64,000 nt of DNA. Source: a virus (taxonomy: Duplodnaviria > Caudoviricetes). Location: IMG/VR virus record IMGVR_UViG_3300014205_000183; one strand, given 5' to 3'. The position numbers and the translations under genes were made by a program. This document shows, piece by piece, positions 50,071 to 64,000 of this stretch (position 1 is its first letter; each line of letters starts with the position of its first letter). A model generated the notes under the pieces. It was not told the origin of the DNA, did not search any database, and saw only the letters and a program-made list of their open reading frames with translations.

Positions 50071-50152
50071 CAGTTCATCCTTTGTTAACCAGTAATTAAG
50101 ATATATCGTACAAAACCAAAAACCAATAAAAATAAATAATCTAAAACGTTAT

Positions 50153-50506
50153 TTATAATCTGCTATTTATATACGGCCAAACCTCACTACCATAACAAGC
50201 CTCCATAGCAGCCTCAAAGATATACTGACCAGTCTCCTCAACATGCTCGTGATTTTCTATACTCCCAATATATGCCTTACAAAGATCATGTACTTGCGTA
50301 AAATCAGGATTCGAGTGCAGCTCCAGTGTCTTATTAACGGGAACTGGTGGTGCCAATTGCGTATTTTTGCCAATAGCGTTCAAAATCTTTAAAGCAATCT
50401 CCGGGTCTGATTTTATTCTTCCCTCTAACTCCCAGCAGCGGTCACACAACTTCGTGCCCAACATAATTGTAGGCTCACCGCAAATGCGGCAGGGAATAGT
50501 GCTCAT
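50153..50506 (-). CDS. hypothetical Zn-finger protein
   Basis: CRICG...LCDRC. Confidence 0.6.
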   Translation of the reverse strand: MSTIPCRICGEPTIMLGTKLCDRCWELEGRIKSDPEIALKILNAIGKNTQLAPPVPVNKTLELHSNPDFTQVHDLCKAYIGSIENHEHVEETGQYIFEAAMEACYGSEVWPYINSRL

Positions 50507-50817
50507 AGGGTACCGCCTGTTTCTAAAGGTACTGTATTCTCTTCTGGAAGGTCTTCGAACGCACCTTCATTAACAGCCATTAAACTCTTGATTTCTTGAA
50601 TTTGTAGGCTGATAGTTTTCTTGAAAACATCTGGAACAGACTGTGTTGTACCTTCGGGTATTGGAGGTCTGCGATGCGGGTCATCTACTTTAAAATTGAA
50701 TTTAGTTGTGGCATACTTCTCCTCATCACGCATTGACCGCCAGGCAGCCAATACTTTGGATTCATCTGCCACCTTAAACAGATATTTAATATCGCTCTTT
50801 GTATAAATGACTATCAT
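50503..50817 (-). CDS. hypothetical protein
   Basis: GAGG RBS; ATGA overlaps. Confidence 0.55.
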   Translation of the reverse strand: MIVIYTKSDIKYLFKVADESKVLAAWRSMRDEEKYATTKFNFKVDDPHRRPPIPEGTTQSVPDVFKKTISLQIQEIKSLMAVNEGAFEDLPEENTVPLETGGTL

Positions 50818-51005
50818 AACACCTCGCTAACCAATTTAGAAAAAGACTCCGGTTCTACTATGACCTCTTTACCATCTTTTTCCCGCTCCAGAGTTACTAA
50901 TGACCGCCCATGTAACTTCTTTACTTTATAGGTGGTCTTGGCCTTACCGTGGGCTATAAAACGCATACCCTCGGTGTATGCTGTGTGCGTAAGGGTAGAG
51001 GCCAT
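50814..51005 (-). CDS. hypothetical protein
   Basis: GAGGAG RBS; coupled to neighbours. Confidence 0.55.
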   Translation of the reverse strand: MASTLTHTAYTEGMRFIAHGKAKTTYKVKKLHGRSLVTLEREKDGKEVIVEPESFSKLVSEVL

Positions 51006-51544
51006 TAACGGCTCCTCTTACTGTTATAGCTATTGAACGCCTGCTGCTCAGCACGGTCGGCGAGTTCCTTCCTTCTGCGACGTTGCGCCGGGGTCAGCTG
51101 CTCATCCGGTATGGCATCCTCATCATCATGCTTGTCATACCAAGCACCGCCTTTGCCCTTCTTTGGCTTAGAATGACTAGGTGTTACTGGAGCAGGTGCG
51201 GTTGTCTGCGCCTGAACAGGTGAAATCTTCGGCGGTGGCGCCACCATAGAAACCATCTCCGCGGGTGGCAACCCCATAAAACCCTGTTTCAAAGTATGCT
51301 TATCTTCGTATCCCTCAACTGTCAGTACACTATAACTTACATCTATTAGGCCGCTGGTGTCATTAGCGTTACTTTGCAGAGTAAGATAGTGTCGCAGTGT
51401 CGATATAGTCTTGGCTCGGTCTATGCGCACGGTGCCGCTTTCTCGTTTTACTCCCAACATATCTTCCGGGGCCTGGAAGGAACCTTCGACATGCCTCTTA
51501 CCAACCAACACAGCTTTATACCTTATTGTCGCGAAACCATTCAT
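51005..51544 (-). CDS. hypothetical protein
   Basis: 179 aa; AAGGGTGA RBS. Confidence 0.6.
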   Translation of the reverse strand: MNGFATIRYKAVLVGKRHVEGSFQAPEDMLGVKRESGTVRIDRAKTISTLRHYLTLQSNANDTSGLIDVSYSVLTVEGYEDKHTLKQGFMGLPPAEMVSMVAPPPKISPVQAQTTAPAPVTPSHSKPKKGKGGAWYDKHDDEDAIPDEQLTPAQRRRRKELADRAEQQAFNSYNSKRSR

Positions 51545-51888
51545 TTGATCACCCTTCTTTTAAATTGTATGTAATAAACTCGCCCGAGAGTCAGTTTTCA
51601 CAGGGAACCCTCGGACGAGTAACCCAGGGGAGGTAGTCCACCCAGATTTGTTAAAAATTTGAAAACCACAATAATAAACCATCTAATTGTCCTGCCTGTA
51701 TTGATAGACCGAGTACTTGTAAACAAAAAAGAAGTGCAAATCCCCAGGCCATAAAAGCCTCCCTATTACCATCTTGAAAAGATAGCATTAGCCCTAATAT
51801 TATCACAATCAACAATAAAGCATTTATTATAATCTGGTAGTGCATATCAAAGCTCCTAAAGAGGCCGGTATTACCCGGCCACATGTTT

Positions 51889-52818
51889 TTAAAGTGCCAT
51901 TGCAGTTTCAAATGCCAACTGTTTAACATCCGCCCCGTGTCCAAGCAGTACAGAAGAATAGCGACGATCTTCGTCATTACGATTCGTATAATGATCAATA
52001 TATTCTGTAGTGCCATTGAATAAATCCCATGCGCTACCTTGACCATTACCTTTACCGTTCTCAAACAGATTGGTGATATCTACTCGTTTAGCCCCGACCT
52101 TTGGGCGACGAACCTTTCTCGAAACACCATCTATCTCCTGTATCTCAATCGGCTTACCTACAACAGTATCCAGGAATCTTTCAACCATTGCGCGGTCAAG
52201 CTGCTTCTGAGCGAGGTATTGACATTTTTCTTGAAAAGCTACAAAAGTATCCTGAGACATATTAAAGACCTTAACAGCCTCAGAAAAACGCTCAGCCAAC
52301 GTGGTGCCTTTATGCTGAATACGAATCTCATCTTTACGACCCGCCCACATCAAGCGAAACTGATTAGCACACCATGCGCGAAGAGTTCCACTGAATGCCA
52401 ATACTGAACCACCACCATCATGGTGATTAGAAAGATTGATGTATTTATCAACATGGTCGCCTGGGCGTACATCAAAACCGCCATTAATCTTCATCTGAAG
52501 TAAGATATTAGCACCACCATTGAGACAGTAGGCATGCTCATATGTTGCACCATAGCGTTCAACAAGTGTATCTGCAAAGGCAAATGCCTCATGGTTCTGG
52601 AGTGGAGTATACTTGAGACCTACGACGCCAATTACCGCCTGATTATCAGAGCGATAGAGAGCCTTGCGCTGAGGGACAGGCAAACCATTAGTGGTTATTA
52701 ATTCAGACTGTTCCACAGTCCAATTAAGACCAGCAATAGACATTGCCTCCTCTGCCGTTTTAGCTGACTGAAGTGCTGCGTGTACAACCTGAGTCTGAAT
52801 TGTGCTTGGTGTGTTCAT
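51889..52818 (-). CDS. DUF932-family protein
   Basis: AGLNW.V, R.DN...GVVG..Y.PLQN.EAF.F, N.HDG, R..CANQ, G.AW..FN..TEY.DH. Confidence 0.85.
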   Translation of the reverse strand: MNTPSTIQTQVVHAALQSAKTAEEAMSIAGLNWTVEQSELITTNGLPVPQRKALYRSDNQAVIGVVGLKYTPLQNHEAFAFADTLVERYGATYEHAYCLNGGANILLQMKINGGFDVRPGDHVDKYINLSNHHDGGGSVLAFSGTLRAWCANQFRLMWAGRKDEIRIQHKGTTLAERFSEAVKVFNMSQDTFVAFQEKCQYLAQKQLDRAMVERFLDTVVGKPIEIQEIDGVSRKVRRPKVGAKRVDITNLFENGKGNGQGSAWDLFNGTTEYIDHYTNRNDEDRRYSSVLLGHGADVKQLAFETAMAL

Positions 52819-52875
52819 GATACTACCTCCTAAAATGTTTTTGTCGAGCAGACCCTGTATCCGTCCGACAATTAT

Positions 52876-52920
52876 AATATAATGATTCTAAAATTCAAAG
52901 TCAACAAAAAAATATAAAAA
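52876..52920 (-). promoter_or_regulatory. sigma70-like promoter with UP element
   Basis: TTGACT-17 bp-TATATT preceded by a T-rich tract. Confidence 0.7.
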
Positions 52921-53266
52921 TAAGTGACGCTATGGTGATAAGAGTACATAAGCTAGCACGAGATGAAGGTGGCTTGCTATTGTAATACTCTCGCCAATCT
53001 GGGAGATCTGCTGCTCTACAGCTTTTAGGAACATCAACAGTTACATTAAAATGATTCTCAATTTTAACCTGTACCAAGATCTCACCGCTAATCTCATTAG
53101 TCACTGCACGACAAATCACCTTTTGCGTGTTTGGCTTCCTGGTGCTATTTTTTACATACTGAGCATTAACGACGCGCATAACATCCTCGGCACAGTTAGC
53201 GGACTTAAGAGCATCGCGTAAGGCCTCTACATCGCGTAAGGCTTCTGCTTCAATTGCTGCGTTCAT
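52901..53266 (-). CDS. hypothetical protein with C-terminal TM helix
   Basis: AAGGAGG RBS; hydrophobic C-terminus. Confidence 0.6.
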   Translation of the reverse strand: MNAAIEAEALRDVEALRDALKSANCAEDVMRVVNAQYVKNSTRKPNTQKVICRAVTNEISGEILVQVKIENHFNVTVDVPKSCRAADLPDWREYYNSKPPSSRASLCTLITIASLIFIFFC

Positions 53267-53323
53267 CTGTTACCTCCTTAGTTATGCTTGCCAGATAAAC
53301 CCTGTATTCATCCGACACTATAT

Positions 53324-53370
53324 AATTTAATATATAGCATAATAAAAGTCAACATAAAAATAAAAAAATA
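53324..53370 (-). promoter_or_regulatory. sigma70-like promoter with UP element
   Basis: TTGACT-17 bp-TAAATT; same TTTTATGTTGACTTT context as at 61891. Confidence 0.65.
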
Positions 53371-53371
53371 A

Positions 53372-53665
53372 TTATAGTTTATTAACCAATTTCTCTAACA
53401 AAGATAGCCTGCGGGCAACCAGCAGATTCTTGCTCTCCAGGAGCTTAAATAGCTTGCGAACAGTAGATAACTTCAATCGAATAAGGTCGCCTGTATCCGG
53501 CTTATGCAGCACAACAGTCAAATAAGGCGATCTGCCGGTCTTTGAATGCGGGTAGTATAATGTCTCGGCTGTGGCCAGATCCTGCCCCAGATACGCTGTT
53601 ACCTTGTCTGACAGCTGCCTCGTAGCCATTACATTAAAATTCTTTAACCGTACAGGTTTAGGCAT
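53372..53665 (-). CDS. hypothetical protein
   Basis: 97-aa ORF in a tandem small-gene array. Confidence 0.55.
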   Translation of the reverse strand: MPKPVRLKNFNVMATRQLSDKVTAYLGQDLATAETLYYPHSKTGRSPYLTVVLHKPDTGDLIRLKLSTVRKLFKLLESKNLLVARRLSLLEKLVNKL

Positions 53666-53686
53666 TTTAATACCCTTTCTAAAATT

Positions 53687-53962
53687 TTACATTAAAGTTA
53701 TACCATGAGGGCTATTTGTATCATGACATCGATTAGGACAGGTTAAATCTCGTCCGCATGCAGTACATTGTGCGCCGTCTTCCTTATTCACCTGTCGTAC
53801 CTCCCATACTCGGTTAGAGAGGTCATGCATAGTTAGTAGGTCAACTATCCTGCCTAGCACATATTTGTCTGTATACTCGTTAGTAGACTCAATCACCGCC
53901 ATTTTTATCTGGGGGTGCTCTCTCGGACTGTCCTTATTAGAACAAAATAATTCGTAGTTCAT
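53687..53962 (-). CDS. hypothetical Zn-finger protein
   Basis: CTACG...CPNRC. Confidence 0.55.
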   Translation of the reverse strand: MNYELFCSNKDSPREHPQIKMAVIESTNEYTDKYVLGRIVDLLTMHDLSNRVWEVRQVNKEDGAQCTACGRDLTCPNRCHDTNSPHGITLM

Positions 53963-54204
53963 TTAATAGTATCTCCGGGATTATAGGTATCTAACATAGC
54001 GGAGCCAAATAAATTAGCATACACATTATTTGCATCTCGCACATAAAGATGCTCTACGTGATTCTCAGAAGTTGCATGCTTTGCGATAACAATAATTGGG
54101 CGAGTTAAAGAATTTAATTTGACTATGTCCTGCTCCATATCCGAACAACCCTGGCAGCCACTCAAGCAAAATAACATACCTCCGTAAATAACTAACTTTT
54201 TCAT
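53959..54204 (-). CDS. putative lipoprotein
   Basis: MKK + hydrophobic stretch + LSGC lipobox. Confidence 0.6.
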   Translation of the reverse strand: MKKLVIYGGMLFCLSGCQGCSDMEQDIVKLNSLTRPIIVIAKHATSENHVEHLYVRDANNVYANLFGSAMLDTYNPGDTIK

Positions 54205-54396
54205 TCAGTACCCCCAAGAATAATATCTATACAACTATGGTTTGCGTGCTATTCTAAGCCGCCACCAACCTAAACGCACCTGGACACCTAAGAACTTAGT
54301 AACCTGCCCCTTTACAACTGCGCGGTAAAAGTATCCCTCACCCTTAGAGACATCCCACCATATAGTTTCAAATCCAAACCCGCAGTAGTTCATATA

Positions 54397-54651
54397 TTAT
54401 GATTCTTTCTTTTCATCTTGCATTTGTGGGTGTACCTTATCAGGTGTCGCTGTAAAATTTACGGTAACAGAGTATTTTTCTGGAGTATGGGACTCCATTA
54501 TCATATGAGGTTGCAGGTTGTGCGTCACCCCTCTCCTTAAATCCGGCGCCAGACTGCGAGTATCGAGGCAAAGCCGCTCAATACGAACATCCACAAGGTC
54601 AGCCCCTCTGTTCTTTAACAACAAGGCTAGGTCATCTACTCGCATAAGCAT
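54397..54651 (-). CDS. hypothetical protein
   Basis: GGAG RBS; coupled to upstream stop. Confidence 0.5.
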   Translation of the reverse strand: MLMRVDDLALLLKNRGADLVDVRIERLCLDTRSLAPDLRRGVTHNLQPHMIMESHTPEKYSVTVNFTATPDKVHPQMQDEKKES

Positions 54652-54920
54652 TATTTTACTCTCCGCTTCTCACTATTGACTTTATTAGACTTGGTATCCT
54701 TGCGTTTCTTAACTATCTCACATGAATATTCATGCGGAGGTTTAGGCAGTTGAGTAGTCATTATAAAACCATTGGATTCCTTGCCTTTTTCTATTATCTC
54801 AAACATACCATACCAAGCATCCAACCATCTGCACAACAGCGTACCGCTAATCGTCACCAGCCTAAATTCAAATTTATCATCTCCCTCTTTTGCTTTTTTC
54901 TGACATTCAACTAGTGTCAT
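54651..54920 (-). CDS. hypothetical protein
   Basis: GGAGGAG RBS; ATGA overlap. Confidence 0.55.
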   Translation of the reverse strand: MTLVECQKKAKEGDDKFEFRLVTISGTLLCRWLDAWYGMFEIIEKGKESNGFIMTTQLPKPPHEYSCEIVKKRKDTKSNKVNSEKRRVK

Positions 54921-55333
54921 AACTCCTCCCGCAGCTCATAAAAAGTTGGTGGTGCATCTAAATTAAAAATTGAAGGTTCAGGCTCTGTACGGCCCAACAT
55001 ACGAACAAACACTGTTTTGTTAAGTTTACTTGCGCGGTCAATCATATCCTTGGTACCTTTACTACGCCCATCCCACACCGCGATAAGAGCGTCGGCGTAA
55101 TCAGCCATCTGCTGATTGCGCACCGGTCCGGCAAGTTTTCCATGCTTGTTCCACTCAGCAGGAAATCTTTTAACGGGTATCCCAGAGGCAGCTGCCCACT
55201 GTTCACCCAGCGTATCAACACCTCTAGCGCAACCACTGACTACTTCTGTAATATTGAAGTTAGCCGCCTTAATGACAGCACATACTTTTTCATATTCAAT
55301 AACTGTTCGACTACCTGCAATAATAGTTCTCAT
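54917..55333 (-). CDS. SLOG-superfamily (YspA/DUF2493-like) protein
   Basis: IIAGSR, VVSG.ARG.D..GE.WA, AGP.RN..M, WDG.SKGT. Confidence 0.85.
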   Translation of the reverse strand: MRTIIAGSRTVIEYEKVCAVIKAANFNITEVVSGCARGVDTLGEQWAAASGIPVKRFPAEWNKHGKLAGPVRNQQMADYADALIAVWDGRSKGTKDMIDRASKLNKTVFVRMLGRTEPEPSIFNLDAPPTFYELREEL

Positions 55334-55803
55334 TTAGCTAACTCTCCTGCCTTCCATGAATCTATAAGCCGGATTGTTAAAGACATAAGTGCTGCATGTC
55401 GCTCTAGCTGGGCATCCTGTTCTTCTTTAATTCTACTCAATATCCACTGCGATACCTCTTGAAGGTCAGATGGGGTTATATGTGGATTGGGATTTTTTAT
55501 CAACCCAATGATAGGGTTAACCACCCCATGGACTGGCGTTAGCTTCAACGCTTCCAGACGGTCCCACAGCTGCATCCTAGTAAGTATATAGGTTTCAATG
55601 TGCGGTGCCGGGGTCTCGGCTTGCTCAGGTAGTATAGCCGGATAACCTGGCTCTTCCGGTTTATTAGCACAATTACACTCCTCAAGCGGCTCATGCCAAT
55701 TACCATAAGCACAAAGACGTGAATCATTGTACTGCGAATATTGCCTATATTGCCTGGCCGTATCTAATATATCCTGCAACTCTTTTTGAGTCTTCTTACG
55801 CAT
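55330..55803 (-). CDS. hypothetical protein
   Basis: 157 aa; AAGGAG RBS. Confidence 0.55.
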   Translation of the reverse strand: MRKKTQKELQDILDTARQYRQYSQYNDSRLCAYGNWHEPLEECNCANKPEEPGYPAILPEQAETPAPHIETYILTRMQLWDRLEALKLTPVHGVVNPIIGLIKNPNPHITPSDLQEVSQWILSRIKEEQDAQLERHAALMSLTIRLIDSWKAGELAK

Positions 55804-55819
55804 CTGTGCTCCTTATAAA

Positions 55820-56047
55820 TTACATCAGTCCGCCAGGCTTATCAGGTTTCCCCGGATGTCGTTCTTCCCTAATAGTATGTTTAGCTATTGAACTTAATGT
55901 TCCACCAAATACGTTGGCCAACACCCGTAATTCCTCACCATATGTCAACTCTTTACAAGCCTCTATTAATACCCCTTTGATTTTAAACTCTGCTTCCTGT
56001 ACCAAAGATTCTCGATCGTGAATTCGAGGTAGATCACCAAACGCCAT
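55820..56047 (-). CDS. hypothetical protein
   Basis: GAGGAGG RBS. Confidence 0.6.
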   Translation of the reverse strand: MAFGDLPRIHDRESLVQEAEFKIKGVLIEACKELTYGEELRVLANVFGGTLSSIAKHTIREERHPGKPDKPGGLM

Positions 56048-56066
56048 TGTCCCCTCCTCTTTCCTA

Positions 56067-56558
56067 TCAGGTATGTATCTTTGTTTTGCAAGCTAAAACA
56101 TTCTCCAATTCGGAGATGATTGTTTCCGCTCTACGCAGCCTCTTTAGTAACAGCATAAATGAGGCAGAATGTTTAATTTTGTGAAAATTAACCTGATGAA
56201 AATGCTCAATTTCTTTTAATGTACCCTGCTGTATTATTTTTTCATACTCTCGCTGGTCAACTAAGTATCTTTCGGCAGATGTGGGATTAGGAATAACACC
56301 CAGACCTTCACAACGTTCACAAGGCATGCCGTGAGATACATGCGGTTGATCCCCTGTTCCTCTGCACGATGGACATGTTTTTAGTTGTGTTTCAGAATCT
56401 GTGTCTTTTACTTCCATAGAGACTGCACCCAGAAAACCAAAACCCTTTACCGCAGCATCAAACTGTGCTTCTGTTATTTGAACCAAATCAGGTGATGTGT
56501 CAGATAATTGTGCAGTCATAGTTCTTCCCGAGGGGGTTATCAAATTTACTTGCTTCAT
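56067..56558 (-). CDS. protein with DnaJ-type CxxCxGxG zinc finger
   Basis: CPSCRGTG ... CERCEGLG. Confidence 0.7.
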   Translation of the reverse strand: MKQVNLITPSGRTMTAQLSDTSPDLVQITEAQFDAAVKGFGFLGAVSMEVKDTDSETQLKTCPSCRGTGDQPHVSHGMPCERCEGLGVIPNPTSAERYLVDQREYEKIIQQGTLKEIEHFHQVNFHKIKHSASFMLLLKRLRRAETIISELENVLACKTKIHT

Positions 56559-57533: not shown

Positions 57534-58997
57534 TTATCTGAGATTTTCAACCTCTCTAATATAAGACAAGATACCCTCGCTGAAGCCGCTGATATGGTTC
57601 CAAGTTCCCCTAGGACCTACACCGTGCTCTGCTGAAGCCACGTTAACCATGTAAGCCAGCGGCGTTCTGGCGTTTGGAACTGATGTCCTGGACTGCTCAT
57701 CGGTGAACACTATAAGCCGGTCATAATCCTTCTTCTCTGCTGCGGATACTGCATAGGCGATGTCAGTGCCACCACCGAATACAGCGCCTGCCAAGGCATC
57801 CCGCAAAGCGAATCCTTTGCGTGGTGGCAACAGCAGTAACTCACCCCTATTGCCAAAGCTGTAAATATCTACATCATCACAAACCCATCGCAACACCATG
57901 GCCAACCCGAAGGCAGCCTCGTATCGCATAAGTTCTGACTTATCAGATAGAGGGTCTTTCATCGAACCACTAGTATCTACCAGCAACGCTGTACGACCAG
58001 CCAATTTAACCTGGCTTAATATAGACTTCTCCATAACGGCCTCTAACTCTGGCTCAAAAGCCGGCGCATGCTTGGCTGCGGCGATGAATCTGAATGGCAA
58101 TATCTTGCTAGTCTTCATAGCAAGCAACGCCTCCTTTATTAACGCCCGGTCAACACCTGCCTGCTCCATGTTACGCAAGTTGCGTAACAAGGCCATCCCA
58201 CCAAGCAGCTCCTCCTTTATCAGGCGAGTGAAGGTCTTCTTCTTATCTGCACCTGCACTTAAAGCGGTCTCCCAGGTATCTGGGATAGGTAATACAGCCT
58301 CCTCATAGTTGGTGCATGGCTCACCTGGCTTACGCCGCTTTACTGGCTTCTTAGCCTTCTTGCGAGCCTGTTCAGCCTTCTTTATAGCTGCTGGAGAGGC
58401 ATGGTCGTCACACTTACACCAACAATGCTTACAGAAGTTACCACTAAGGGTCTTGAACAGTCTGTCCTGCTCCTTATCAACTGCCTTTGGTCTAGCCAAA
58501 AACAACACGTCACGCAACTTCACAGCTGCATTGTTGAAGTCCCACTTAGACAGACGCTCAAGATCAAACTTACCGAGACCGGCAGCCAATCCTCGCTTAA
58601 GCTGCTTGGATAGCATCTTGCGGTCACCGTTTACTGACCAGTAAAGGCTTACCAACTCGCCCAGCTCATCTGGGCGCTGAATCACAGCCTCTGCGGTCTT
58701 GGCCACAAACTCAGGATGAAACTTGCACATAGCAACGACAATCATGAGTGGGGCATGCCGCATATGCCACTTTGACCGAACCTCTATAGCCCAATCACTG
58801 GCAAACTGACCAGACACCTTGGCCACTGCATCATATATAGCAGTCTTTATGGTCTTACCATCTACATAGAACTGATCCTCTCCCAGGAAGCAACAGGCAG
58901 TTAGCCGTTGTAGTAGCTGCTCTGGAGTATTTCTGATAGCTACCGCACCCTCGTGGGTGTGTGGAGCTGGGGTTACGATTTTACGATTTGACTTCAT
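57534..58997 (-). CDS. Ro60/Rsr-like TROVE-domain RNA-binding protein with vWA domain
   Basis: THEG, FY.DG, MR..P, QRPDE..E, LRDVLFL..PK, TWET.LS, MALLRNLRN, LPFRF..A, LVDTSGSM (MIDAS), GGTD, FTDEQ. Confidence 0.93.
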   Translation of the reverse strand: MKSNRKIVTPAPHTHEGAVAIRNTPEQLLQRLTACCFLGEDQFYVDGKTIKTAIYDAVAKVSGQFASDWAIEVRSKWHMRHAPLMIVVAMCKFHPEFVAKTAEAVIQRPDELGELVSLYWSVNGDRKMLSKQLKRGLAAGLGKFDLERLSKWDFNNAAVKLRDVLFLARPKAVDKEQDRLFKTLSGNFCKHCWCKCDDHASPAAIKKAEQARKKAKKPVKRRKPGEPCTNYEEAVLPIPDTWETALSAGADKKKTFTRLIKEELLGGMALLRNLRNMEQAGVDRALIKEALLAMKTSKILPFRFIAAAKHAPAFEPELEAVMEKSILSQVKLAGRTALLVDTSGSMKDPLSDKSELMRYEAAFGLAMVLRWVCDDVDIYSFGNRGELLLLPPRKGFALRDALAGAVFGGGTDIAYAVSAAEKKDYDRLIVFTDEQSRTSVPNARTPLAYMVNVASAEHGVGPRGTWNHISGFSEGILSYIREVENLR

Positions 58998-59245
58998 TGG
59001 ATATCCTTTCTTTTATATGAAACAATTCTTTCAAGAGGTTTCTCATCCTCATTAGCGGCTCTAATCGCAGCTGTACACACATATTGACAATGATACATAT
59101 GTACAGAAGCAGTGTCATACAACTCAGCAAATCCGTCTACTGTGCTAGCTAGGGCGTGTTCTGTTATATCTTTGGGTATATGTACTAATCTACGTTCTAA
59201 CTCGTTGTCTGCATTCACTAATAGAATTGTACCTTCGATAGCCAT
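58994..59245 (-). CDS. hypothetical protein translationally coupled to Ro60
   Basis: AGGAGG before MAIEG (59245); ATGA overlap with the Ro60 start; the longer ORF call runs into an RNA gene. Confidence 0.6.
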   Translation of the reverse strand: MAIEGTILLVNADNELERRLVHIPKDITEHALASTVDGFAELYDTASVHMYHCQYVCTAAIRAANEDEKPLERIVSYKRKDIQ

Positions 59246-59270
59246 TACATACCTCCTGTTAAGTACAAAT

Positions 59271-59300
59271 AAAAAAGCCACGGACAATATGTTCGTGGCT
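59271..59300 (-). terminator. intrinsic terminator between the ncRNA array and the Ro60 operon
   Basis: AGCCACGAACA-TAT-TGTCCGTGGCT followed by TTTTT. Confidence 0.7.
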
Positions 59301-59314
59301 AGATTTATAAAGTA

Positions 59315-59448
59315 TTGCGGGTAACGCATGAAACGAGCTTTTTTTGACGGTTGCTCTGCCAACTGAGCTACAGCAGCCTAAGCCGCTGATGGGACTCGAA
59401 CCCATGACCTACTGTGTGGTTGAAGTATTCGTCTCTCCAACACCGCAA
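59315..59448 (-). ncRNA. Y RNA (YrlA-like) 1
   Basis: TTGCG/CGCAA terminal stem; TGTTG..TACTTC; permuted tRNA module (T-arm GGGTTCGAGTCCC, closed acceptor hairpin, D-arm TAGCTCAGTTGGCAGAGC); CGTTACC; adjacent to Ro60. Confidence 0.85.
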
Positions 59449-59455
59449 ATTATAA

Positions 59456-59541
59456 ATCCGGGAACGTTCGACTGCCGTTAGTGGGTTACCCCACGGTCAT
59501 ACCAAAAAAGAATGAAGTAACGGATGTCTATCACCACGGAT
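59456..59541 (-). ncRNA. Y RNA 2 (minimal, no tRNA-like module)
   Basis: ATCCG/CGGAT stem; TGGTG..TACTTC..CGTTCC shared with the other copies. Confidence 0.7.
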
Positions 59542-59557
59542 CATTTTTCTTATTAAT

Positions 59558-59671
59558 AAGTCGGGAACGGGCACTGCACGTTAGCCCTTACCAAATAGGG
59601 CGAGGCATCTGGCGTTAACCAGGTGCACTGGGATTTGAACCTAGAAGTAGGTGCAATAATCACCACGACTT
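59558..59671 (-). ncRNA. Y RNA (YrlA-like) 3
   Basis: AAGTCG/CGACTT stem; TGGTG..TACTTC; T-arm GGTTCAAATCC; closed acceptor; D-arm GCCCTATTTGGTAAGGGC; CGTTCC. Confidence 0.8.
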
Positions 59672-60444
59672 GAATATGTGAAAGAACAAATAGACCAATT
59701 TATAAACCCAGTTAGAGGAAAAATAGAGGTAAAAAATAACCCCTACCGTGGCTGTTGCCAGTACCGCCCTCCAACCAAGCAATTTTTAAGAGTAGCTTGA
59801 GTGTCGGTACCGGTACTAATGATCTGTCCATATGAACAAACCCGTTCTCAGCCCTTGTTCTCTCACTACTCAACGTTTAAGGTTACCTTGATAATATTAG
59901 CTAACATTAATGTGGCCACAAAGAACGTCGAATACCAGGTACTGGTTATGAGCCAGCAGTCCAATATCACCTTTAAGACCTTCTTGCTACCAAAATATTA
60001 TCAAAGAACCAGTTTCTGTGTTCACGGGAGTGTCAGGCATCATCAGTGCAGGATTGAGAGCTACCCGGGCAGAATCGATTCTACTTGACCGGACAATCCT
60101 AACTGCACCCAACACAAGAAACTCCCGAGAACACACAATCAATTTGGAGCCAGACGCCCCCGGTTGATTAGACCGAAGGTTTGCTACGGAATCACCCGTA
60201 TGCTGGCAAGTTTTTACCTCTCTTCGTATCTCTACAGGCAGGAGGAGATCCCGGGAGCTGTTTTACCAGCCGCCACCCACCACCGTATTTTGTTAAATAC
60301 GGAAAATATTTCTCGTCGTAAGAATAAAGAGGCTTGTGGCCCCGCCTGGTCCCCGGCCTTACAACGAAATTTTAAAGGGGGTATATCCTTATCTTTTAGG
60401 GATAAGTGCCCTCGGGTGGAGTCTATATACCCTTTAATTTATAA

Positions 60445-60579
60445 TGCCGGTAACGTGCGAAACACTGACGTGTGCGCTCTACCACTGAGCTACGTTCGGC
60501 ATGAATGGGCCAAACGACAGGATTCGAACCTGTGACCTCACCCTCCAAAAGGGAAGTAAGTGTATCTATCAACACGGCA
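60445..60579 (-). ncRNA. Y RNA (YrlA-like) 4
   Basis: TGCCG/CGGCA stem; TGTTG..TACTTC; T-arm CAGGTTCGAATCCTG; D-arm TAGCTCAGTGGTAGAGC; CGTTACC. Confidence 0.85.
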
Positions 60580-60614
60580 AATTTTATATCAAAGAACAAG
60601 CTAATCTACAAACC

Positions 60615-60740
60615 TCAGCAGAAGTGGGAGTCGAACCCACAGAACCCAGAGAGATAACAGACTCTCTAAGTAACCTCTTTTCGCTTGCCGTTATCGCAGC
60701 TACTCGAAAGCGCGGCTGCCAATTTTCGCCATTCTGCTGA
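60615..60740 (-). ncRNA. tRNA-like RNA with expanded anticodon domain and no CCA
   Basis: TCAGCAGAA/TTCTGCTGA acceptor; D-arm; long variable arm; T-arm GTGGGTTCGACTCCCAC. Confidence 0.65.
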
Positions 60741-61636
60741 TTTCTTTTTAACGATCATAGAGGGGCATGGTCAGCACGGAGGTTTATAAGCCCCTCACCG
60801 CTGAGTATTTAATTCAGCTTCAACCAACTATGCTTGTCCTCTACAATCTACATGTCAAAGTCATGGGTCAGAATTTAGTCAAAAACTTAACCTAAACCCT
60901 AAGTCTCTGCTTCTGTTTGGACTGGCTACCGTCCATGCAAATATGGCGCCCCTACAATAGAGTGACTATTCACAACACTTGCCCTAATGCCTTGCAGTTA
61001 CCCCGGGTGCGGCACCTACTCTAGTGTCATTGCAGCATCTCTTCGCTGCGTAGAGGACTTTTAATAAGTGCTACTAGATCCGGTTGTTGGAGCTGCATTA
61101 GCGCCTAGAGAGGATGTGTTCGCACGGTTTAAAGATTCTCACAAGGTTGGGCAGGTAGTGTCTCCTGCTCTGACTGGTCAAGCCTCTTTATTCTCGGCCC
61201 TTCCCACGTAACCAACGGGTGAGCTTCCGAGTTCATCAACGTGTTTCAACGCTGCACCAACCCTGTCAGAATCCTTAACTCTTTTACAAGTGAGGTTGGC
61301 TAACACGCACTTGTGTCCGAGTTGTTTACCGAGTTCGCTCGGTGGTCCACGGGCAACCCTGCGTTGCTCCTCACTTATTTTTTAAGGGTGTCCTGAACTT
61401 TAGACGAACTGCGTCAAGCAAGCCGGATCGTGACCCCGGATTTCCCTAAGTTTGAAGACACAGCCAAGGGTCGCGCCCTTCTCGACGGTCTCTCACCGCA
61501 AGCCATGCCAAATTTATAAACCAACAGGAGATATATCCATAAGGATATAACAAAGTTACTGGAGCAATTACGCTTCATCACAACGGTAGCGACCTTACGG
61601 TGCGCCCATCCTGTTGATAATTTATTTCAAAGAACA

Positions 61637-61842
61637 AAAATCATATATCGATGGAGTCGAACCACCTAGTCTGCCTACTTACATTTACCTACCGGATTTT
61701 CATGTCCGTTCCAGTGTAGGCCGTGCACCAGTTGTTTAGACCGCACACGTACAGGATTTGAACCCGCAATAAATGTGTGCTTCAACAGCATTTGCAGCTT
61801 ACGAGGCTACTGCGTTCACCATGACGCCCCACATATGATTTT
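61637..61842 (-). ncRNA. ~205-nt tRNA-like RNA with two T-arms
   Basis: AAAATCATAT/ATATGATTTT closing stem; D-arm; anticodon-like arm; T-arms CGGGTTCAAATCCTG and GTGGTTCGACTCCAT. Confidence 0.6.
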
Positions 61843-61867
61843 AAAAGAACATTTTAATTTCCTAAAT

Positions 61868-61915
61868 AACATAAACTATTAAAAATTAAAAGTCAACATA
61901 AAAATAAAAAAAAAT
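61868..61915 (-). promoter_or_regulatory. sigma70-like promoter of the ncRNA operon
   Basis: TTGACT-17 bp-TATGTT with a T-rich UP element; boxA-like GTTCTTT just downstream. Confidence 0.7.
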
Positions 61916-62035
61916 TATCACACTCGGTACGATTATTCTTTACATCTCATTTTTAACACTATATATTAGCAGCATCATCGACCAACGGAGTTTAACCATT
62001 TTGATATCTACTCCGTATATCAAGAAAGGACATGT

Positions 62036-62740
62036 ATGATGCATTCAAATTCTTTTGTCTTAGCTGTCAAGTCGGCGGACAACAAAATCCTTCGTGAAAT
62101 CGGAGGACAGGTTTTCCTCACATTCAATTCAGAGTATTCTCTCCTGCTGAAGAACCTTAACAATGTAAAAAGCTGTTGCACAGTTAGCATTGACGGAACG
62201 GATGTTCTAGGTGGTCACGAGTTGATCGTCGAAGCACATTCCAGTATTGACCTAGAGAGATTTGTGGTAGATGGCAACTTTGGAAGTGGTCGCCGCTTCA
62301 AATTTGTACCACTTACGGACTCTAAGGTACAAGACCCCTCTTCTGCTGAAAATGGTATCGTGGAAGTGCGGTTCTGGAAAGAGAAAGTTATTCAACCTAT
62401 CTTCATAGGGAGTAACTCTCTTCTTCGATCAAGCGGGGTGATCCATCCTAACTCCAGCAGTTGCTTCTATTCAGCTCCTATAGGTACTGCCTGCTGTGAT
62501 AGTATGGCTACTCCAGCGGCTGCGGGGGCTACTGTAGAAGGTGCATATAGCAATCAGCAGTTTGGCAGCGGATACTTCGGAGAAAAAGACGGGGCACCCA
62601 CCGTGCTGCGGCTTAAGTTGGTTGGTCAGGTAGATAAACCACTAACAGTAGAAGCTACTAAAAATAAACACTGCACTAACTGTGGCCGAAAAGCCAAGTT
62701 CAATGATTATTTCTGTGGTGGCTGCGGTAAAGCTCTATAA
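62036..62740 (+). CDS. hypothetical protein with C-terminal zinc ribbon
   Basis: 234 aa; AAAGGA RBS; CTNCG...CGGCG; own terminator; the only convincing plus-strand gene in the window. Confidence 0.8.
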   Translation: MMHSNSFVLAVKSADNKILREIGGQVFLTFNSEYSLLLKNLNNVKSCCTVSIDGTDVLGGHELIVEAHSSIDLERFVVDGNFGSGRRFKFVPLTDSKVQDPSSAENGIVEVRFWKEKVIQPIFIGSNSLLRSSGVIHPNSSSCFYSAPIGTACCDSMATPAAAGATVEGAYSNQQFGSGYFGEKDGAPTVLRLKLVGQVDKPLTVEATKNKHCTNCGRKAKFNDYFCGGCGKAL

Positions 62741-62765
62741 GATCCAGTTACTCGGTCGATGACAG

Positions 62766-62795
62766 CCCGGCTTCCATGGTGGAGGCCGGGTTTTT
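62766..62795 (+). terminator. intrinsic terminator
   Basis: CCCGGCTTCC-ATGGT-GGAGGCCGGG followed by TTTTT. Confidence 0.8.
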
Positions 62796-62802
62796 AATTT
62801 AA

Positions 62803-62925
62803 TGCCGGTAACGTGCGTTTTCGGATGTTTTTTGTTTTACCATTAAACTACACCTTACGGCGTCGGGATTCGAACCCGAATCTTTCTTTAGACAGAAGAA
62901 GTATCCGATAACTATCAACACGGCA
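62803..62925 (-). ncRNA. Y RNA (YrlA-like) 5
   Basis: TGCCG/CGGCA stem; TGTTGATAG..TACTTC; T-arm TCGGGTTCGAATCCCGA; short closed acceptor; D-arm TAGTTTAATGGTAAAAC; CGTTACC. Confidence 0.85.
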
Positions 62926-62929
62926 ATTT

Positions 62930-63018
62930 TGGCGGATGAAGTGAGACTCGAACTCACAACGCCGTCTCTGGCGCTACTGCTTTTCAAGAGCAGCTCCCGT
63001 TCCAGCAGGAACTCATCC
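62930..63018 (-). tRNA. tRNA-Ser(TGA)
   Basis: Anticodon loop CTTGAAA; long variable arm; TTCGA; encoded CCA; atypical D-arm. Confidence 0.85.
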
Positions 63019-63026
63019 ATATATTT

Positions 63027-63103
63027 TGGAGCACCCTCCCGGAATTGCACCGAGGTATTAATCGGGTTGCGACCGACCGCCTTACTGTCTTGGCTAAGAG
63101 TGC
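63027..63103 (-). tRNA. tRNA-Cys(GCA)
   Basis: Loop TCGCAAC; U73 discriminator; CCA; T-loop TGCAA. Confidence 0.8.
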
Positions 63104-63113
63104 ATATAAATTT

Positions 63114-63194
63114 TGGTGCGCTAGGAGGGACTTGCACCCCCACGATTTCTCGGCAGATCCTAAGTCTGCTGCGTCTGCATTCCGCCACAAGCGC
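63114..63194 (-). tRNA. tRNA-Leu(TAG)
   Basis: Loop CTTAGGA; A73; CCA; T-loop TGCAA. Confidence 0.85.
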
Positions 63195-63200
63195 ATAATC

Positions 63201-63277
63201 TGGTATCCTCGGTTGGATTCTAACCAACGACATCCTCTTTAGGAAAGAAGAACTCTGAACAGCTGAGCTACGAGGAT
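63201..63277 (-). tRNA. tRNA-Arg(CCT)
   Basis: Loop TTCCTAA; CCA; T-loop TAGAA. Confidence 0.85.
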
Positions 63278-63278
63278 A

Positions 63279-63355
63279 TGGTGCTTCGAGTCGGACTTAA
63301 ACCGACGGCATCAGCCTTCGGAAAGCTGCGCTCTATTCATCTGAGCTATCGAAGC
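63279..63355 (-). tRNA. tRNA-Arg(CCG)
   Basis: Loop TTCCGAA; CCA; T-loop TTTAA. Confidence 0.88.
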
Positions 63356-63360
63356 CTGTT

Positions 63361-63437
63361 TGGCGTTCATGGAAGGACTTGAACCTTCAGCCTCCTGGTC
63401 CGTAGCCAGGTGCTCTATCCAATTGAGCTACACGAAC
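63361..63437 (-). tRNA. tRNA-Arg(ACG)
   Basis: Loop CTACGGA; canonical arms; CCA. Confidence 0.92.
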
Positions 63438-63443
63438 ATATTT

Positions 63444-63519
63444 TGGCAGGAGAGGCCGGAGTTGAACCGACGACATCCAGCTCCAGAGGCTGGCGTTCTA
63501 CCAACTGAACTACTCTCCA
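63444..63519 (-). tRNA. tRNA-Gln(CTG)
   Basis: Loop CTCTGGA; canonical arms; CCA. Confidence 0.9.
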
Positions 63520-63526
63520 ACGATTT

Positions 63527-63600
63527 TGGCTGAGGTGCATCGACTTGCACGATGATAACAGGCTCCAAAGGCCTGGGTCCTACTATTGAACGACACCCCA
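63527..63600 (-). tRNA. tRNA-Gln(TTG)
   Basis: Loop CTTTGGA; U1:A72; CCA; T-loop TGCAA. Confidence 0.88.
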
Positions 63601-63634
63601 AAATTTTTAAAAGAGCCGGGTGGTTGTCCCCGGC

Positions 63635-64000
63635 TTATGCTTCAAGTTCAACATCCCAATAAACAAAGTCTTTCCAACTCTCGTGCGGCAGGTGCTTAAG
63701 AGCCTGAATCTTCAGGGTTATTTCACGCTCAAGAGAGAGGTCGTACTTCGGCGCCTGGGGTGTGCACCACAAGTGCATTCCAGCTTGTGCCGGCGTTCGG
63801 TTAGCCTTCTTGCCGTTGCAAGCTAAGCAGCAGCATACAAGATTACGCCAATGACTTGTTCCACCCTGGTCACGAGGAACCACGTGGTCCCAGTGCATCT
63901 TCTGGATAGGTAAAAACGTCCGGCAATACTGACAATGCCCCCGGTCACGAATCCACAGATTCTTACGGGACAGCCGCATAACACGGCCACGCTTCTGGAC
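63635..64000 (-). CDS. HNH endonuclease (probably 5'-truncated by the window edge)
   Basis: RD...CQYC, DHVVPR.QGG...W.NLV.CC..CN..K.NRTP. Confidence 0.88.
   Translation of the reverse strand, partial: VQKRGRVMRLSRKNLWIRDRGHCQYCRTFLPIQKMHWDHVVPRDQGGTSHWRNLVCCCLACNGKKANRTPAQAGMHLWCTPQAPKYDLSLEREITLKIQALKHLPHESWKDFVYWDVELEA

What the first reader, a model, noticed from the sequence alone, without database searches (positions are those of the whole stretch)
59315..62925. Five divergent Y RNAs with a constant Ro-binding stem and swapped effector modules
Seen: five elements (59315-59448, 59456-59541, 59558-59671, 60445-60579, 62803-62925) share, on the minus strand, stem-G-TG[T/G]TG...TACTTC...CGTT[A/C]CC-stem. 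The terminal stems co-vary (TTGCG/CGCAA, ATCCG/CGGAT, AAGTCG/CGACTT, TGCCG/CGGCA). Four carry a circularly permuted tRNA module (T-arm, closed acceptor hairpin of differing length, D-arm); copy 2 has only a small hairpin. Known: YrlA-type Y RNAs have this Ro-stem plus tRNA-mimic architecture, and Y RNA can tether Ro60 to partners such as PNPase. Inference: one Ro60 is reprogrammed by a panel of adaptors, each presenting a different tRNA mimic, possibly as decoys for tRNA-targeting defences.
Basis: partly seen in the sequence, partly recalled or inferred. Interest (0 to 1): 0.8.

Follow-up and report, generated by a model that had tools for sequence, protein, structure and literature searches.

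The report
Five phage Y RNAs beside Ro60
An uncultured phage carries five small structured RNAs of the known Y RNA family next to its Ro60 gene; related phages usually carry two or three, so this is a large set of a known kind rather than a new system.

Summary
The five elements sit at the stated coordinates on the minus strand. They are the only matches to the shared motif in the 132-kb genome (0.07 expected by chance).

Two covariance models built only from elements of other phages recover all five, full length:
- Y5, Y1 and Y4 score 80, 79 and 71 bits.
- Y2 scores 43 bits with the short-form model.
- Y3 scores only 29 and 21 bits.

The adjacent 487-aa protein is a Ro60/Rsr ortholog; its model matches Thermus phage phiLo Ro60 at TM 0.70.

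The same RNA family lies on the Ro60 strand in 86 of 89 related viral loci. There are 241 elements in 80 non-redundant loci, at 1-8 copies each and most often 2-3. Covariation is strong (94% paired against 62-65% in shuffles).

These are YrlA-type (tRNA-like) and YrlB-type (hairpin) Y RNAs. The family was already reported in phages, including Caulobacter phage CcrColossus, which is one of my loci. They are diverged: Rfam YrlA scores are 31-46 bits against a cut-off of 69.

Five copies is in the upper range. Four tRNA-like copies is the second highest count of 80.

Ro60 binding, different partners for each RNA, and the "decoy" idea are all untested.

The parts
59316..59447 (-). Y1: YrlA-type Y RNA. 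It has a 6-bp basal stem, a bulged U, a GU/AC 2-bp helix, a second stem AGACGA/UCGUUU and the motif AUACUUC. Its tRNA-like module has a T-arm AUGGG-UUCGAGU-CCCAU, a 7-bp acceptor-like hairpin with a UUAG loop, U8-A9, and a D-arm GCUC-AGUUGGCA-GAGC.
   Evidence: Model R1, built only from other phages: 79.1 bits, E 2.3e-16, full length. Rfam YrlA: 45.5 bits, E 3.7e-8, below the cut-off of 69. Fold.
59456..59541 (-). Y2: short YrlB-like Y RNA with the same platform and UUACUUC. It has no T- or D-arm. Its apex is a U-rich hairpin plus a GUGGG-GUAA-CCCAC hairpin.
   Evidence: Short-form model R2, built only from other phages: 43.3 bits, E 1e-8, full length. Folds.
59559..59670 (-). Y3: compact Y RNA with the platform and a second stem UUGCAC/GUGCAG. 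It has a weak T-arm (CUAGG-UUCAAAU-CCCAG, one mismatch), a long acceptor-like hairpin, and a D-arm GCCC(U)-loop with GG-(A)GGGC.
   Evidence: R1: 28.6 bits, E 8e-5, full length. R2: 21.3 bits, E 0.004. This is the weakest of the five; its R1 score is in the range of tandem-tRNA junction hits, but those hits are only partial.
60445..60579 (-). Y4: YrlA-type Y RNA with a V hairpin, a T-arm ACAGG-UUCGAAU-CCUGU, an 8-bp acceptor-like hairpin with an 8-nt loop, and a D-arm GCUC-AGUGGUA-GAGC. A long hairpin with a U-rich tail follows it (about 60432-60368).
   Evidence: R1: 71.2 bits, E 1.5e-14. Rfam YrlA: 30.9 bits. Sequence.
62803..62925 (-). Y5: YrlA-type Y RNA that starts 2-4 nt after tRNA-Ser in an eight-tRNA array. 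It has a V hairpin, a T-arm CGGG-UUCGAAU-CCCG, a 5-bp acceptor-like hairpin with a GUAA loop, and a D-arm GUUU-AAUGGUA-AAAC. Its platform is 29/30 identical to that of Y4.
   Evidence: R1: 79.9 bits, E 1.5e-16. R2: 47.7 bits. Rfam YrlA: 31.6 bits. Comparison with Y4. tRNA positions.
57534..58997 (-). Ro60/Rsr ortholog: 487 aa, a TROVE ring plus a vWA domain with an intact MIDAS motif (DxSxS, T, D).
   Evidence: Pfam TROVE, E 4e-10. phmmer against PDB: 9KOP/9L5Y, phage phiLo Ro60, E 3e-15. AF2 model with pLDDT 77.6; Foldseek gives 9KOP TM 0.70, 2NVO TM 0.63, and 1YVP. MIDAS residues are invariant in 10 homologs.
59270..59300 (-). Intrinsic-terminator-like hairpin (AGCCACG, 11-nt loop, CGTGGCT, then T6ATTT) just after Y1. 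It separates the Y3-Y2-Y1 tandem from the small ORF and the Ro60 gene.
   Evidence: Read directly from the sequence. The automatic scan missed it because the loop is longer than 8 nt.
58994..59245 (-). Small ORF (83 aa, no family match) overlapping the Ro60 start codon; probably co-translated with Ro60.
62930..63600 (-). Array of eight tRNA genes directly upstream of Y5 on the same strand. It is probably one precursor with Y5.
   Evidence: ARAGORN and Rfam.

Best explanation
The five elements are Y RNAs, the small non-coding partners of the Ro60 ring protein encoded just downstream.

Anatomy (shown):
- Each RNA pairs its 5' and 3' ends into a basal helix whose sequence differs between copies.
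- A nearly constant platform follows: one bulged U, a 2-bp helix, and an asymmetric internal loop (5' UGAUAG facing 3' CGCACGUU).
- Next come a second helix of free sequence and a UACUUC motif.
- The apex is variable.
- In Y1, Y3, Y4 and Y5 the apex is a tRNA-like domain in permuted order (T-arm, closed acceptor-like hairpin, U8, D-arm), as in YrlA.
- In Y2 the apex is a U-rich hairpin plus a small hairpin, as in YrlB.

Mechanism (inferred):
- The RNAs are cut out of longer precursors that also hold tRNAs.
- The constant platform docks on the phage Ro60.
- The apical module tethers Ro60 to a host RNA enzyme. PNPase is the documented partner in Deinococcus, Salmonella and Thermus phage phiLo.
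- The complex then acts on structured RNA during infection.
- Plausible substrates are the phage's own 36 tRNAs and its large set of other structured RNAs, or host RNA.

Whether the four tRNA-like copies recruit different partners or simply add dosage is open.
For: (1) Uniqueness: exactly five motif matches in 132 kb against 0.07 expected.

(2) Independent family membership: models trained only on elements next to TROVE genes of other phages recover all five at full length and nothing else comparable in 64 kb.

(3) Linkage to Ro60: 86 of 89 related viral loci carry such elements. All 258 are on the TROVE strand, mostly within 600 nt upstream.

(4) RNA structure:
- 94.6% of cells are paired against 62.4% in shuffles and 42-57% when the partner is slid; 14 of 15 pairs show double changes.
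- In a second set, 94.2% against 64.7%, with 23 of 24 pairs showing double changes; this set includes the T- and D-arms.
- G.U pairs fix the strand.
- Compensatory changes are seen between the close relatives CcrPW and CcrColossus.

(5) The architecture matches published YrlA: basal helix, internal loop, second stem, YUAY, then V, T, AS and D (PMC4201824). Rfam YrlA E-values run from 3.7e-8 to 6e-4.

(6) The protein is Ro60 by sequence and by fold. Its closest solved relative, phiLo Ro60, binds two phage Y-like RNAs and host PNPase (PMC12135203).

(7) Platform variants are uniform within a locus and differ between loci. Bulge, pair 8 and position 9 each gave 0 of 1000 permutations. This fits one locus-specific binding partner.
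Against: - No expression or binding data exist.
- Rfam YrlA scores (45.5, 31.6 and 30.9 bits) are below the gathering cut-off of 69. That model also rings on tandem tRNAs.
- The literal GNCGAAN0-1G motif is not present in the window. The window has GKUGAUAG at that position.
- Y3 scores weakly.
- Locus-specific platform variants could reflect recent duplication rather than co-evolution with Ro60.
- No exoribonuclease partner is encoded in the 132-kb record, which is 68% complete. Any partner must therefore come from an unknown host.
Confidence: 0.8

Rival explanations
1. The copies are redundant. Tandem and dispersed duplicates raise Y RNA dosage or drift neutrally, and the differing modules do not specify different partners.
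For: Copy number varies freely from 1 to 8 among related loci. In CcrPW several neighbouring copies share basal-stem sequence, which points to recent duplication. All T-loops and D-loops are near-consensus, so the tRNA-like face is much the same in each copy.
Against: Interiors are only 38-60% identical while each keeps a well-formed module. Short and long forms coexist in most loci, and lengths are bimodal at about 65 and about 130 nt. Acceptor-like hairpins differ in length (5, 7, 8 and about 9 layers), and V hairpins are present in only some copies.
Confidence: 0.3
2. One reading: the tRNA-like Y RNAs are decoys or sponges for host defences that target tRNA, presented on one Ro60.
For: All four modules keep the canonical elbow (UUC T-loop, GG D-loop), whereas 24 of the phage's 36 tRNAs carry G55 instead of U55. 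A Ro60-like protein of phage Bas63 was reported to counter the ppl defence (PMC11482910). Four tRNA-like copies is the second highest count among 80 loci.
Against: The modules have no anticodon stem-loop, which (from general knowledge, not tested here) is where most known tRNA-targeting defence nucleases cut. The acceptor end is closed by a loop. UUC T-loops are a family-wide trait (97 of 100 elements), so they need no phage-specific explanation. No tRNA-repair genes (RtcB, RNA ligase, CCA-adding enzyme) were found in the record.
Confidence: 0.1
3. They are DNA-level repeats or cis-acting leader elements of the Ro60 mRNA, not free RNAs that bind Ro60.
For: Most family members lie directly upstream of the Ro60 gene on the same strand. 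No expression data exist.
Against: Compensatory changes preserve strand-specific helices that include G.U pairs. Y4 and Y5 lie 1.4 and 3.8 kb away, behind terminator-like hairpins, and Y5 abuts a tRNA. In L019 two copies sit between tRNA genes 3 kb downstream of the Ro60 gene. A terminator separates Y1 from the Ro60 operon.
Confidence: 0.04
4. They are degenerate tRNA genes, or artefacts of tandem tRNA junctions.
For: The Rfam YrlA model and R1 also hit T-arm/D-arm junctions of adjacent tRNAs at 27-33 bits.
Against: Junction hits cover only the middle of the models. The five elements match end to end, including the platform. ARAGORN calls no tRNA in them, and there is no anticodon arm. Y2 has no tRNA-like part at all.
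Confidence: 0.02

Closest known systems
YrlA / YrlB Y RNAs of bacteria and phages (Chen et al. 2013, 2014; Rfam RF02553), including those of Caulobacter phage CcrColossus
   Same: Encoded upstream of a Ro60/Rsr gene on the same strand. Same order of parts: basal helix with a conserved 5'-strand motif, internal loop, second stem, YUAY, then V, T-arm, closed acceptor-like hairpin and D-arm. A hairpin-type partner RNA lies alongside. CcrColossus and CcrPW are two of my related loci (L012, L011), so this is the same lineage.
   Different: Scores fall below the Rfam cut-off: 31-46 bits here and 33-42 bits in relatives, against 69. The 5' motif here is GKUGAUAG rather than GNCGAAN0-1G. There are five copies, four of them tRNA-like, where the published picture is one YrlA plus one YrlB. 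Copies are dispersed through a tRNA/ncRNA island rather than only tandem.
Thermus phage phiLo Ro60 with Yrl1 and Yrl2 (PMC12135203; PDB 9KOP, 9L5Y)
   Same: The closest solved protein (E 3e-15, TM 0.70). A phage Ro60 with Y-like RNAs encoded upstream, reported to form complexes with host PNPase.
   Different: phiLo has two Y-like RNAs, described as stem-bulge-stem with a CGAA motif. tRNA-like modules are not described for them. Protein identity is only about 22%.
Metazoan Y RNAs (four in humans) and the Xenopus Ro-Y RNA complex (PDB 1YVP)
   Same: A small family of paralogous RNAs shares one Ro-binding bulged helix formed by the paired ends, with variable loops thought to recruit different proteins. 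The 3' strand here (GCACGUUACC) resembles the GCACUUGAC that I recall for human Y1; this is from memory and is only a lead.
   Different: Metazoan Y RNAs have no tRNA-like domain, and they are RNA polymerase III transcripts. Here the RNAs are embedded in tRNA operons.
RYPER complex (Rsr-Y RNA-PNPase) of Deinococcus radiodurans and Salmonella
   Same: It is the model for function: the Y RNA docks on Ro60 and tethers it to an exoribonuclease.
   Different: No PNPase gene is in the phage record. The partner in this system is unknown.

Membership tests
YrlA/YrlB-type Y RNA | Encoded within a few kb of a Ro60/Rsr (TROVE) gene, on the same strand | tested here: met
   Y1-Y3 lie 0.3-0.7 kb, Y4 1.4 kb and Y5 3.8 kb upstream of the TROVE ORF, all on the minus strand. 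The same linkage holds in 86 of 89 related loci, with 258 of 258 elements on the TROVE strand.
YrlA/YrlB-type Y RNA | 5' and 3' ends pair into a helix that carries a conserved 5'-strand motif (GNCGAAN0-1G), the putative Rsr site | tested here: inconclusive
   The helix is met, with strong covariation. The literal motif is not present in the window: it reads G(U/G)UG(A/G)(U/A)(A/U)(G/A) at that position. The motif grades into GGCGAAG in L010 and GGCGUAG in L011. G at position 10 is invariant in 207 of 210 elements.
YrlA/YrlB-type Y RNA | tRNA-like domain in the order T-arm, acceptor-like hairpin, D-arm (YrlA only) | tested here: met
   Y1, Y4 and Y5 align to the T- and D-arms of R1 and of Rfam YrlA with all pairs standard. 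Y3 has the same parts with one T-stem mismatch. Y2 lacks the domain and fits the YrlB-like short-form model.
YrlA/YrlB-type Y RNA | Score at or above the Rfam RF02553 gathering threshold (69 bits) | tested here: not met
   Scores are 45.5, 31.6 and 30.9 bits; Y2 and Y3 give no hit. Relatives, including a CcrPW copy, also score only 33-42 bits. The whole phage clade is therefore below the curated cut-off.
YrlA/YrlB-type Y RNA | Bound by Ro60/Rsr in cells, with tRNA-type modifications or RNase P cleavage | not testable with these tools
   No experiment or tool here measures binding, modification or cleavage.
Ro60/Rsr protein | TROVE helical-repeat ring plus a vWA domain with MIDAS | tested here: met
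   Pfam TROVE plus weak vWA hits. The full-length fold matches phiLo, Deinococcus, Xenopus and human Ro60. The DxSxS, T and D residues are invariant.
Genuine tRNA | Cloverleaf with an anticodon arm and an open acceptor end | tested here: not met
   ARAGORN and the Rfam tRNA model call nothing inside the five elements. The acceptor-like stem is closed by a loop, and the anticodon-arm position leads into the platform.
RYPER-type Ro60-Y RNA-exoribonuclease machine | A PNPase or other exoribonuclease tethered by the Y RNA | not testable with these tools
   No RNase PH/PNPase domain is in the record. The only RNB hit is below threshold, in a probable structural protein. The host is unknown.

The most novel reading that the evidence does not exclude
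This phage has diversified its Y RNAs into a panel of four tRNA mimics that keep the canonical tRNA elbow, while two thirds of its own tRNAs have rewired that elbow (G55). On this reading the Y RNAs, held on Ro60, engage host factors that recognise canonical tRNA shape. They would either soak up such factors (nucleases, modification or processing enzymes) or aim a Ro60-exonuclease complex at host tRNAs, while the phage's rewired tRNAs escape.
Probability: 0.1. Interest if true: 0.75.

Novelty: new member of a known kind. Interest (0 to 1): 0.4.

Why it matters
Y RNAs are well studied in animals and in a few bacteria, but their role in phages is barely explored.

This locus and the census built around it show that phage Ro60 genes almost always travel with several Y RNAs. 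Counts run from 1 to 8 and are most often 2-3, and the usual mix is a tRNA-like form plus hairpin forms. The curated Rfam model misses this clade.

That gives three practical results:
- an annotation fix, since RefSeq marks part of one CcrColossus Y RNA as tRNA-Gln;
- two usable covariance models;
- culturable test systems (Caulobacter phages CcrColossus and CcrPW, with eight copies each) for asking what a phage gains from Ro60 and whether paralogous Y RNAs recruit different partners.

For this phage itself, the result is an enlarged set of a known RNA family, not a new mechanism.

Tried and rejected
- blastn of 59300-62950 against GenBank phages: no match.
- Public sequencing runs: no RNA holder is listed. 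The only holders are a landfill metagenome (the probable source) and a groundwater metagenome, both kept as DNA contigs. Laying their contigs gave only the source contig, low-depth identical fragments and cross-matches to tRNAs. It says nothing about expression.
- Pfam searches of the 132-kb record for RtcB, CCA-adding/poly(A) polymerase, RNA ligase and RNase PH/PNPase: none found. The record is only 68% complete.
- A weak RNB hit (16 bits against a cut-off of 29) lies in an 891-aa ORF two ORFs from the tail sheath gene. I rejected it as an exoribonuclease.
- blastn of the ORF-free spacers against related loci and the rest of the genome: nothing.
- My first MAFFT alignments of the five copies were out of register in the middle. 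I replaced them with model-based alignments.
- A constrained fold of Y1 failed to keep the basal stem. I used the unconstrained fold instead.
- R1 found nothing in Ralstonia phage RsoM2USA, which has the closest named Ro60. I did not search it with the short-form model.
Full report
**Source and setting**

The window is bases 32001-96000 of a 132,324-bp IMG/VR virus record. It was assembled from a landfill metagenome and is also present at low depth in a groundwater metagenome. Nearly all genes lie on the minus strand. The finding sits in an RNA-rich stretch between a TROVE gene (57534-58997) and an array of tRNA genes (62930-63600).

**Checking the observation**

The minus strand shows the five elements as described. 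I searched for GTGKTG, then 50-170 nt, then CGTTMCC, closed by a flanking stem of at least 4 bp.
- This finds exactly the five elements in the whole genome, all on the minus strand.
- One hundred second-order Markov simulations gave a mean of 0.07 hits.
- Five of the eight CGTTMCC sites on that strand belong to these elements.
- Each folds better than its shuffles (z from -2.2 to -3.2).

The descriptor was written after seeing the elements, so the stronger test is the independent one below.

**Independent test with sequences from other phages**

The TROVE protein has relatives (38-45% identity) in 11 IMG/VR loci. Directly upstream of those genes, on the same strand, I found the same kind of element in tandem.

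I built two covariance models from those foreign elements only:
- R1, from nine long elements.
- R2, from ten short ones.

Searched against the 64-kb window, they gave:
- R1: Y5 79.9 bits, Y1 79.1 bits, Y4 71.2 bits, Y3 28.6 bits, all matched end to end.
- R2: Y2 43.3 bits, Y5 47.7 bits, Y3 21.3 bits.

The only other hits are partial matches (27-33 bits) to T-arm/D-arm junctions of adjacent tRNAs. Chen et al. 2014 warn about the same artefact. So all five belong to a family that travels with phage TROVE genes. Y3 is the weakest member.

**Structure**

On 37 model-aligned elements from 11 sources:
- 94.6% of cells pair, against 62.4% in shuffles and 42-57% when the partner is slid.
- 14 of 15 pairs show changes on both sides.

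On a second set of 71 distinct elements from other loci:
- 94.2% pair, against 64.7% in shuffles.
- 23 of 24 pairs show double changes, including the T-arm and D-arm.

The pair just above the bulge occurs as G-C, U-A and C-G. The window supplies the U-A state in Y1, Y4 and Y5 and the G-C state in Y2 and Y3. Frequent G.U pairs fix the strand as that of the TROVE gene.

Between the close relatives CcrPW and CcrColossus, the array is more conserved (95.2%) than the TROVE gene (92.6%), and it contains compensatory pairs of changes. This rules out a DNA-only repeat.

**Anatomy (minus strand)**

In order, each element has:
- a basal helix of 5-6 bp with free sequence;
- one bulged U;
- a 2-bp helix;
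- an internal loop (5' UGAUAG facing 3' CGCACGUU);
- a second helix of 5-7 bp with free sequence;
- (A/U)UACUUC;
- an apical module.

In Y1, Y4 and Y5 the module is a T-arm with a UUCGANU loop, a closed acceptor-like hairpin (7, 8 and 5 bp), U8, and a 4-bp D-arm with GG. Y4 and Y5 also have a V hairpin. Y3 is a compact version with one T-stem mismatch. Y2 has a U-rich hairpin and a GNRA-capped hairpin instead.

**Comparison with what is known**

The order of parts is that of YrlA as published (PMC4201824). [quoted passage not shown]
- The published GNCGAAN0-1G motif, proposed as the Rsr site, occupies the position of the window's GKUGAUAG.
- Relatives bridge the two forms: GGCGAAG in L010 and GGCGUAG in L011.
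- UACUUC corresponds to the published YUAY at the start of the V loop.
- Rfam YrlA hits Y1, Y5 and Y4 with E from 3.7e-8 to 6e-4, but at 45.5, 31.6 and 30.9 bits, below the cut-off of 69.
- Relatives score 33-42 bits.

Two of my loci are cultured phages: L011 is Caulobacter phage CcrPW and L012 is CcrColossus. CcrColossus is cited as a phage with Ro60 and Y-like RNA. So this is the known phage Y RNA lineage, diverged beyond the curated threshold.

**The protein**

- Pfam gives TROVE (E 4e-10) and weak vWA hits.
- The best PDB sequence match is Thermus phage phiLo Ro60 (E 3e-15).
- An AlphaFold model (pLDDT 77.6) matches phiLo Ro60 at TM 0.70. It also matches Deinococcus Rsr at TM 0.63, and Xenopus and human Ro60, over the full length.
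- The MIDAS residues are invariant in ten homologs.

phiLo Ro60 binds two phage Y-like RNAs and forms complexes with host PNPase.

**How unusual is five?**

A profile scan found 329 TROVE-encoding stretches in IMG/VR, and I fetched the best 80. I ran both models over them and merged the hits.
- 86 of 89 loci have elements. Two of the three blanks have no upstream sequence.
- All 258 foreign elements are on the TROVE strand.
- In 80 non-redundant loci there are 241 elements.

| Copies per locus | 1 | 2 | 3 | 4 | 5 | 6 | 8 |
|---|---|---|---|---|---|---|---|
| Loci | 3 | 30 | 28 | 7 | 8 | 3 | 1 |

| tRNA-like copies per locus | 0 | 1 | 2 | 3 | 4 | 5 |
|---|---|---|---|---|---|---|
| Loci | 23 | 33 | 20 | 2 | 1 (this window) | 1 (CcrPW) |

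Lengths are bimodal, at about 65 and about 130 nt. These counts cover only 6-8 kb on each side of the gene, and the tRNA-like class was assigned by a simple pattern. Five copies is in the upper range but not unique. Four tRNA-like copies is rare.

**Evidence on 'constant stem, swapped modules'**

- Y4 and Y5 share 29 of 30 platform nucleotides, including the freely variable basal stem, yet their interiors are 53% identical. That is no more than other pairs (38-60%). It is a mosaic, so platform and module have different histories.
- Across 210 elements, the bulge nucleotide, the pair above it and position 9 are much more uniform within a locus than between loci (0 of 1000 permutations each).
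- This fits one locus-specific binding partner. Shared descent of paralogs could add to the signal.

**Transcription and processing (inferred)**

- Y5 starts 2-4 nt after tRNA-Ser at the end of an eight-tRNA array, and a strong hairpin follows it.
- Y4 ends a second ORF-free unit that begins near a promoter-like site at 61896-61868. A long hairpin with a U-rich tail follows Y4.
- Y3, Y2 and Y1 are separated by AU-rich spacers of about 14 and 7 nt, and end at a terminator-like hairpin at 59300-59270.
- In L014 and L019 the Ro60 gene and its Y RNAs also sit among tRNA genes.

Release by the tRNA-processing machinery is therefore likely, but it is not shown.

**The decoy idea**

- For: 24 of the phage's 36 tRNAs have G55 in place of U55, whereas all four Y modules keep UUC and GG. 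A Ro60-like protein of phage Bas63 was reported to counter a defence system.
- Against: UUC T-loops are family-wide (97 of 100). The modules lack an anticodon loop and have a closed acceptor end. The record holds no tRNA-repair genes.

I put this reading at about 0.1.

**Verdict**

The identification as Y RNAs on a shared platform is well supported. Ro60 binding and partner specificity are inferred, and the decoy function is speculative. This is a new, enlarged member of a known family, and the useful by-product is the family-wide census and models.

Other readers in this scan noted the same stretch.

Noticed in passing
window 59675-60444 and 60741-61640, minus strand: Two ORF-free stretches between the Y RNAs fold far better than their shuffles: z = -6.4 for 770 nt and z = -3.1 for 900 nt, with 20 shuffles each. 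They have no Rfam match at E up to 10 and no similarity in related loci. They are probably further structured RNAs of unknown kind.
   Followed up: partly
window 60605-60750, minus strand: A tRNA-like RNA of about 130 nt with a 9-bp acceptor-like stem (UCAGCAGAA/UUCUGCUGA), a canonical T-arm (GUGGG-UUCGACU-CCCAC) and a long extra hairpin. Neither ARAGORN nor Rfam calls it.
   Followed up: partly
window 61625-61850, minus strand: ARAGORN's tRNA-Thr(cgt) at 61743-61837 has an insert of more than 20 nt and scores just below the Rfam tRNA cut-off (27.6 against 29). It is nested inside an outer 12-bp stem that also encloses a second T-arm (GGUGG-UUCGACU-CCAUC).
   Followed up: partly
whole genome G000:C1 93743-101498 (window 61743-64000 and beyond): Of the phage's 36 tRNAs, 24 have G at T-loop position 55 (mostly UGC instead of UUC), usually with an A-containing D-loop in place of GG. 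The four Y RNA modules all keep UUC and GG.
   Followed up: partly
L102 (Caulobacter phage CcrColossus, NC_019406.1) 1218-2409: Eight tandem Y RNA elements lie upstream of gp139, which is annotated as an RNA-binding protein. The RefSeq 'tRNA-Gln' (record 109217-109284) and a 'rho-independent terminator' (109342-109357) fall inside two of them, so they are probably mis-annotations.
   Followed up: yes
window 62036-62740, plus strand: A lone plus-strand ORF (234 aa, with only a weak C-terminal zinc-ribbon hit) sits inside the minus-strand RNA island. It has its own strong terminator at 62764-62792 and an AT-rich divergent promoter region at 61840-62030.
   Followed up: no
window 63635-63979, minus strand: An HNH endonuclease gene lies directly upstream of the tRNA array.
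   Followed up: no
window 49114-56558, minus strand: Genes downstream of the Ro60 gene include a SLOG/YAcAr-family protein (54917-55333), a zinc-finger protein with a weak Anti-TRAP/DnaJ-like hit (56067-56558), a DUF932 protein (51889-52818) and an HD-domain protein (49114-50070).
   Followed up: no
L019 6647-6826: In a related phage, two short Y RNAs sit between tRNA-Leu and tRNA-Glu, 3 kb downstream of the Ro60 gene. Y RNAs interleaved with tRNA genes are therefore not peculiar to this window.
   Followed up: yes
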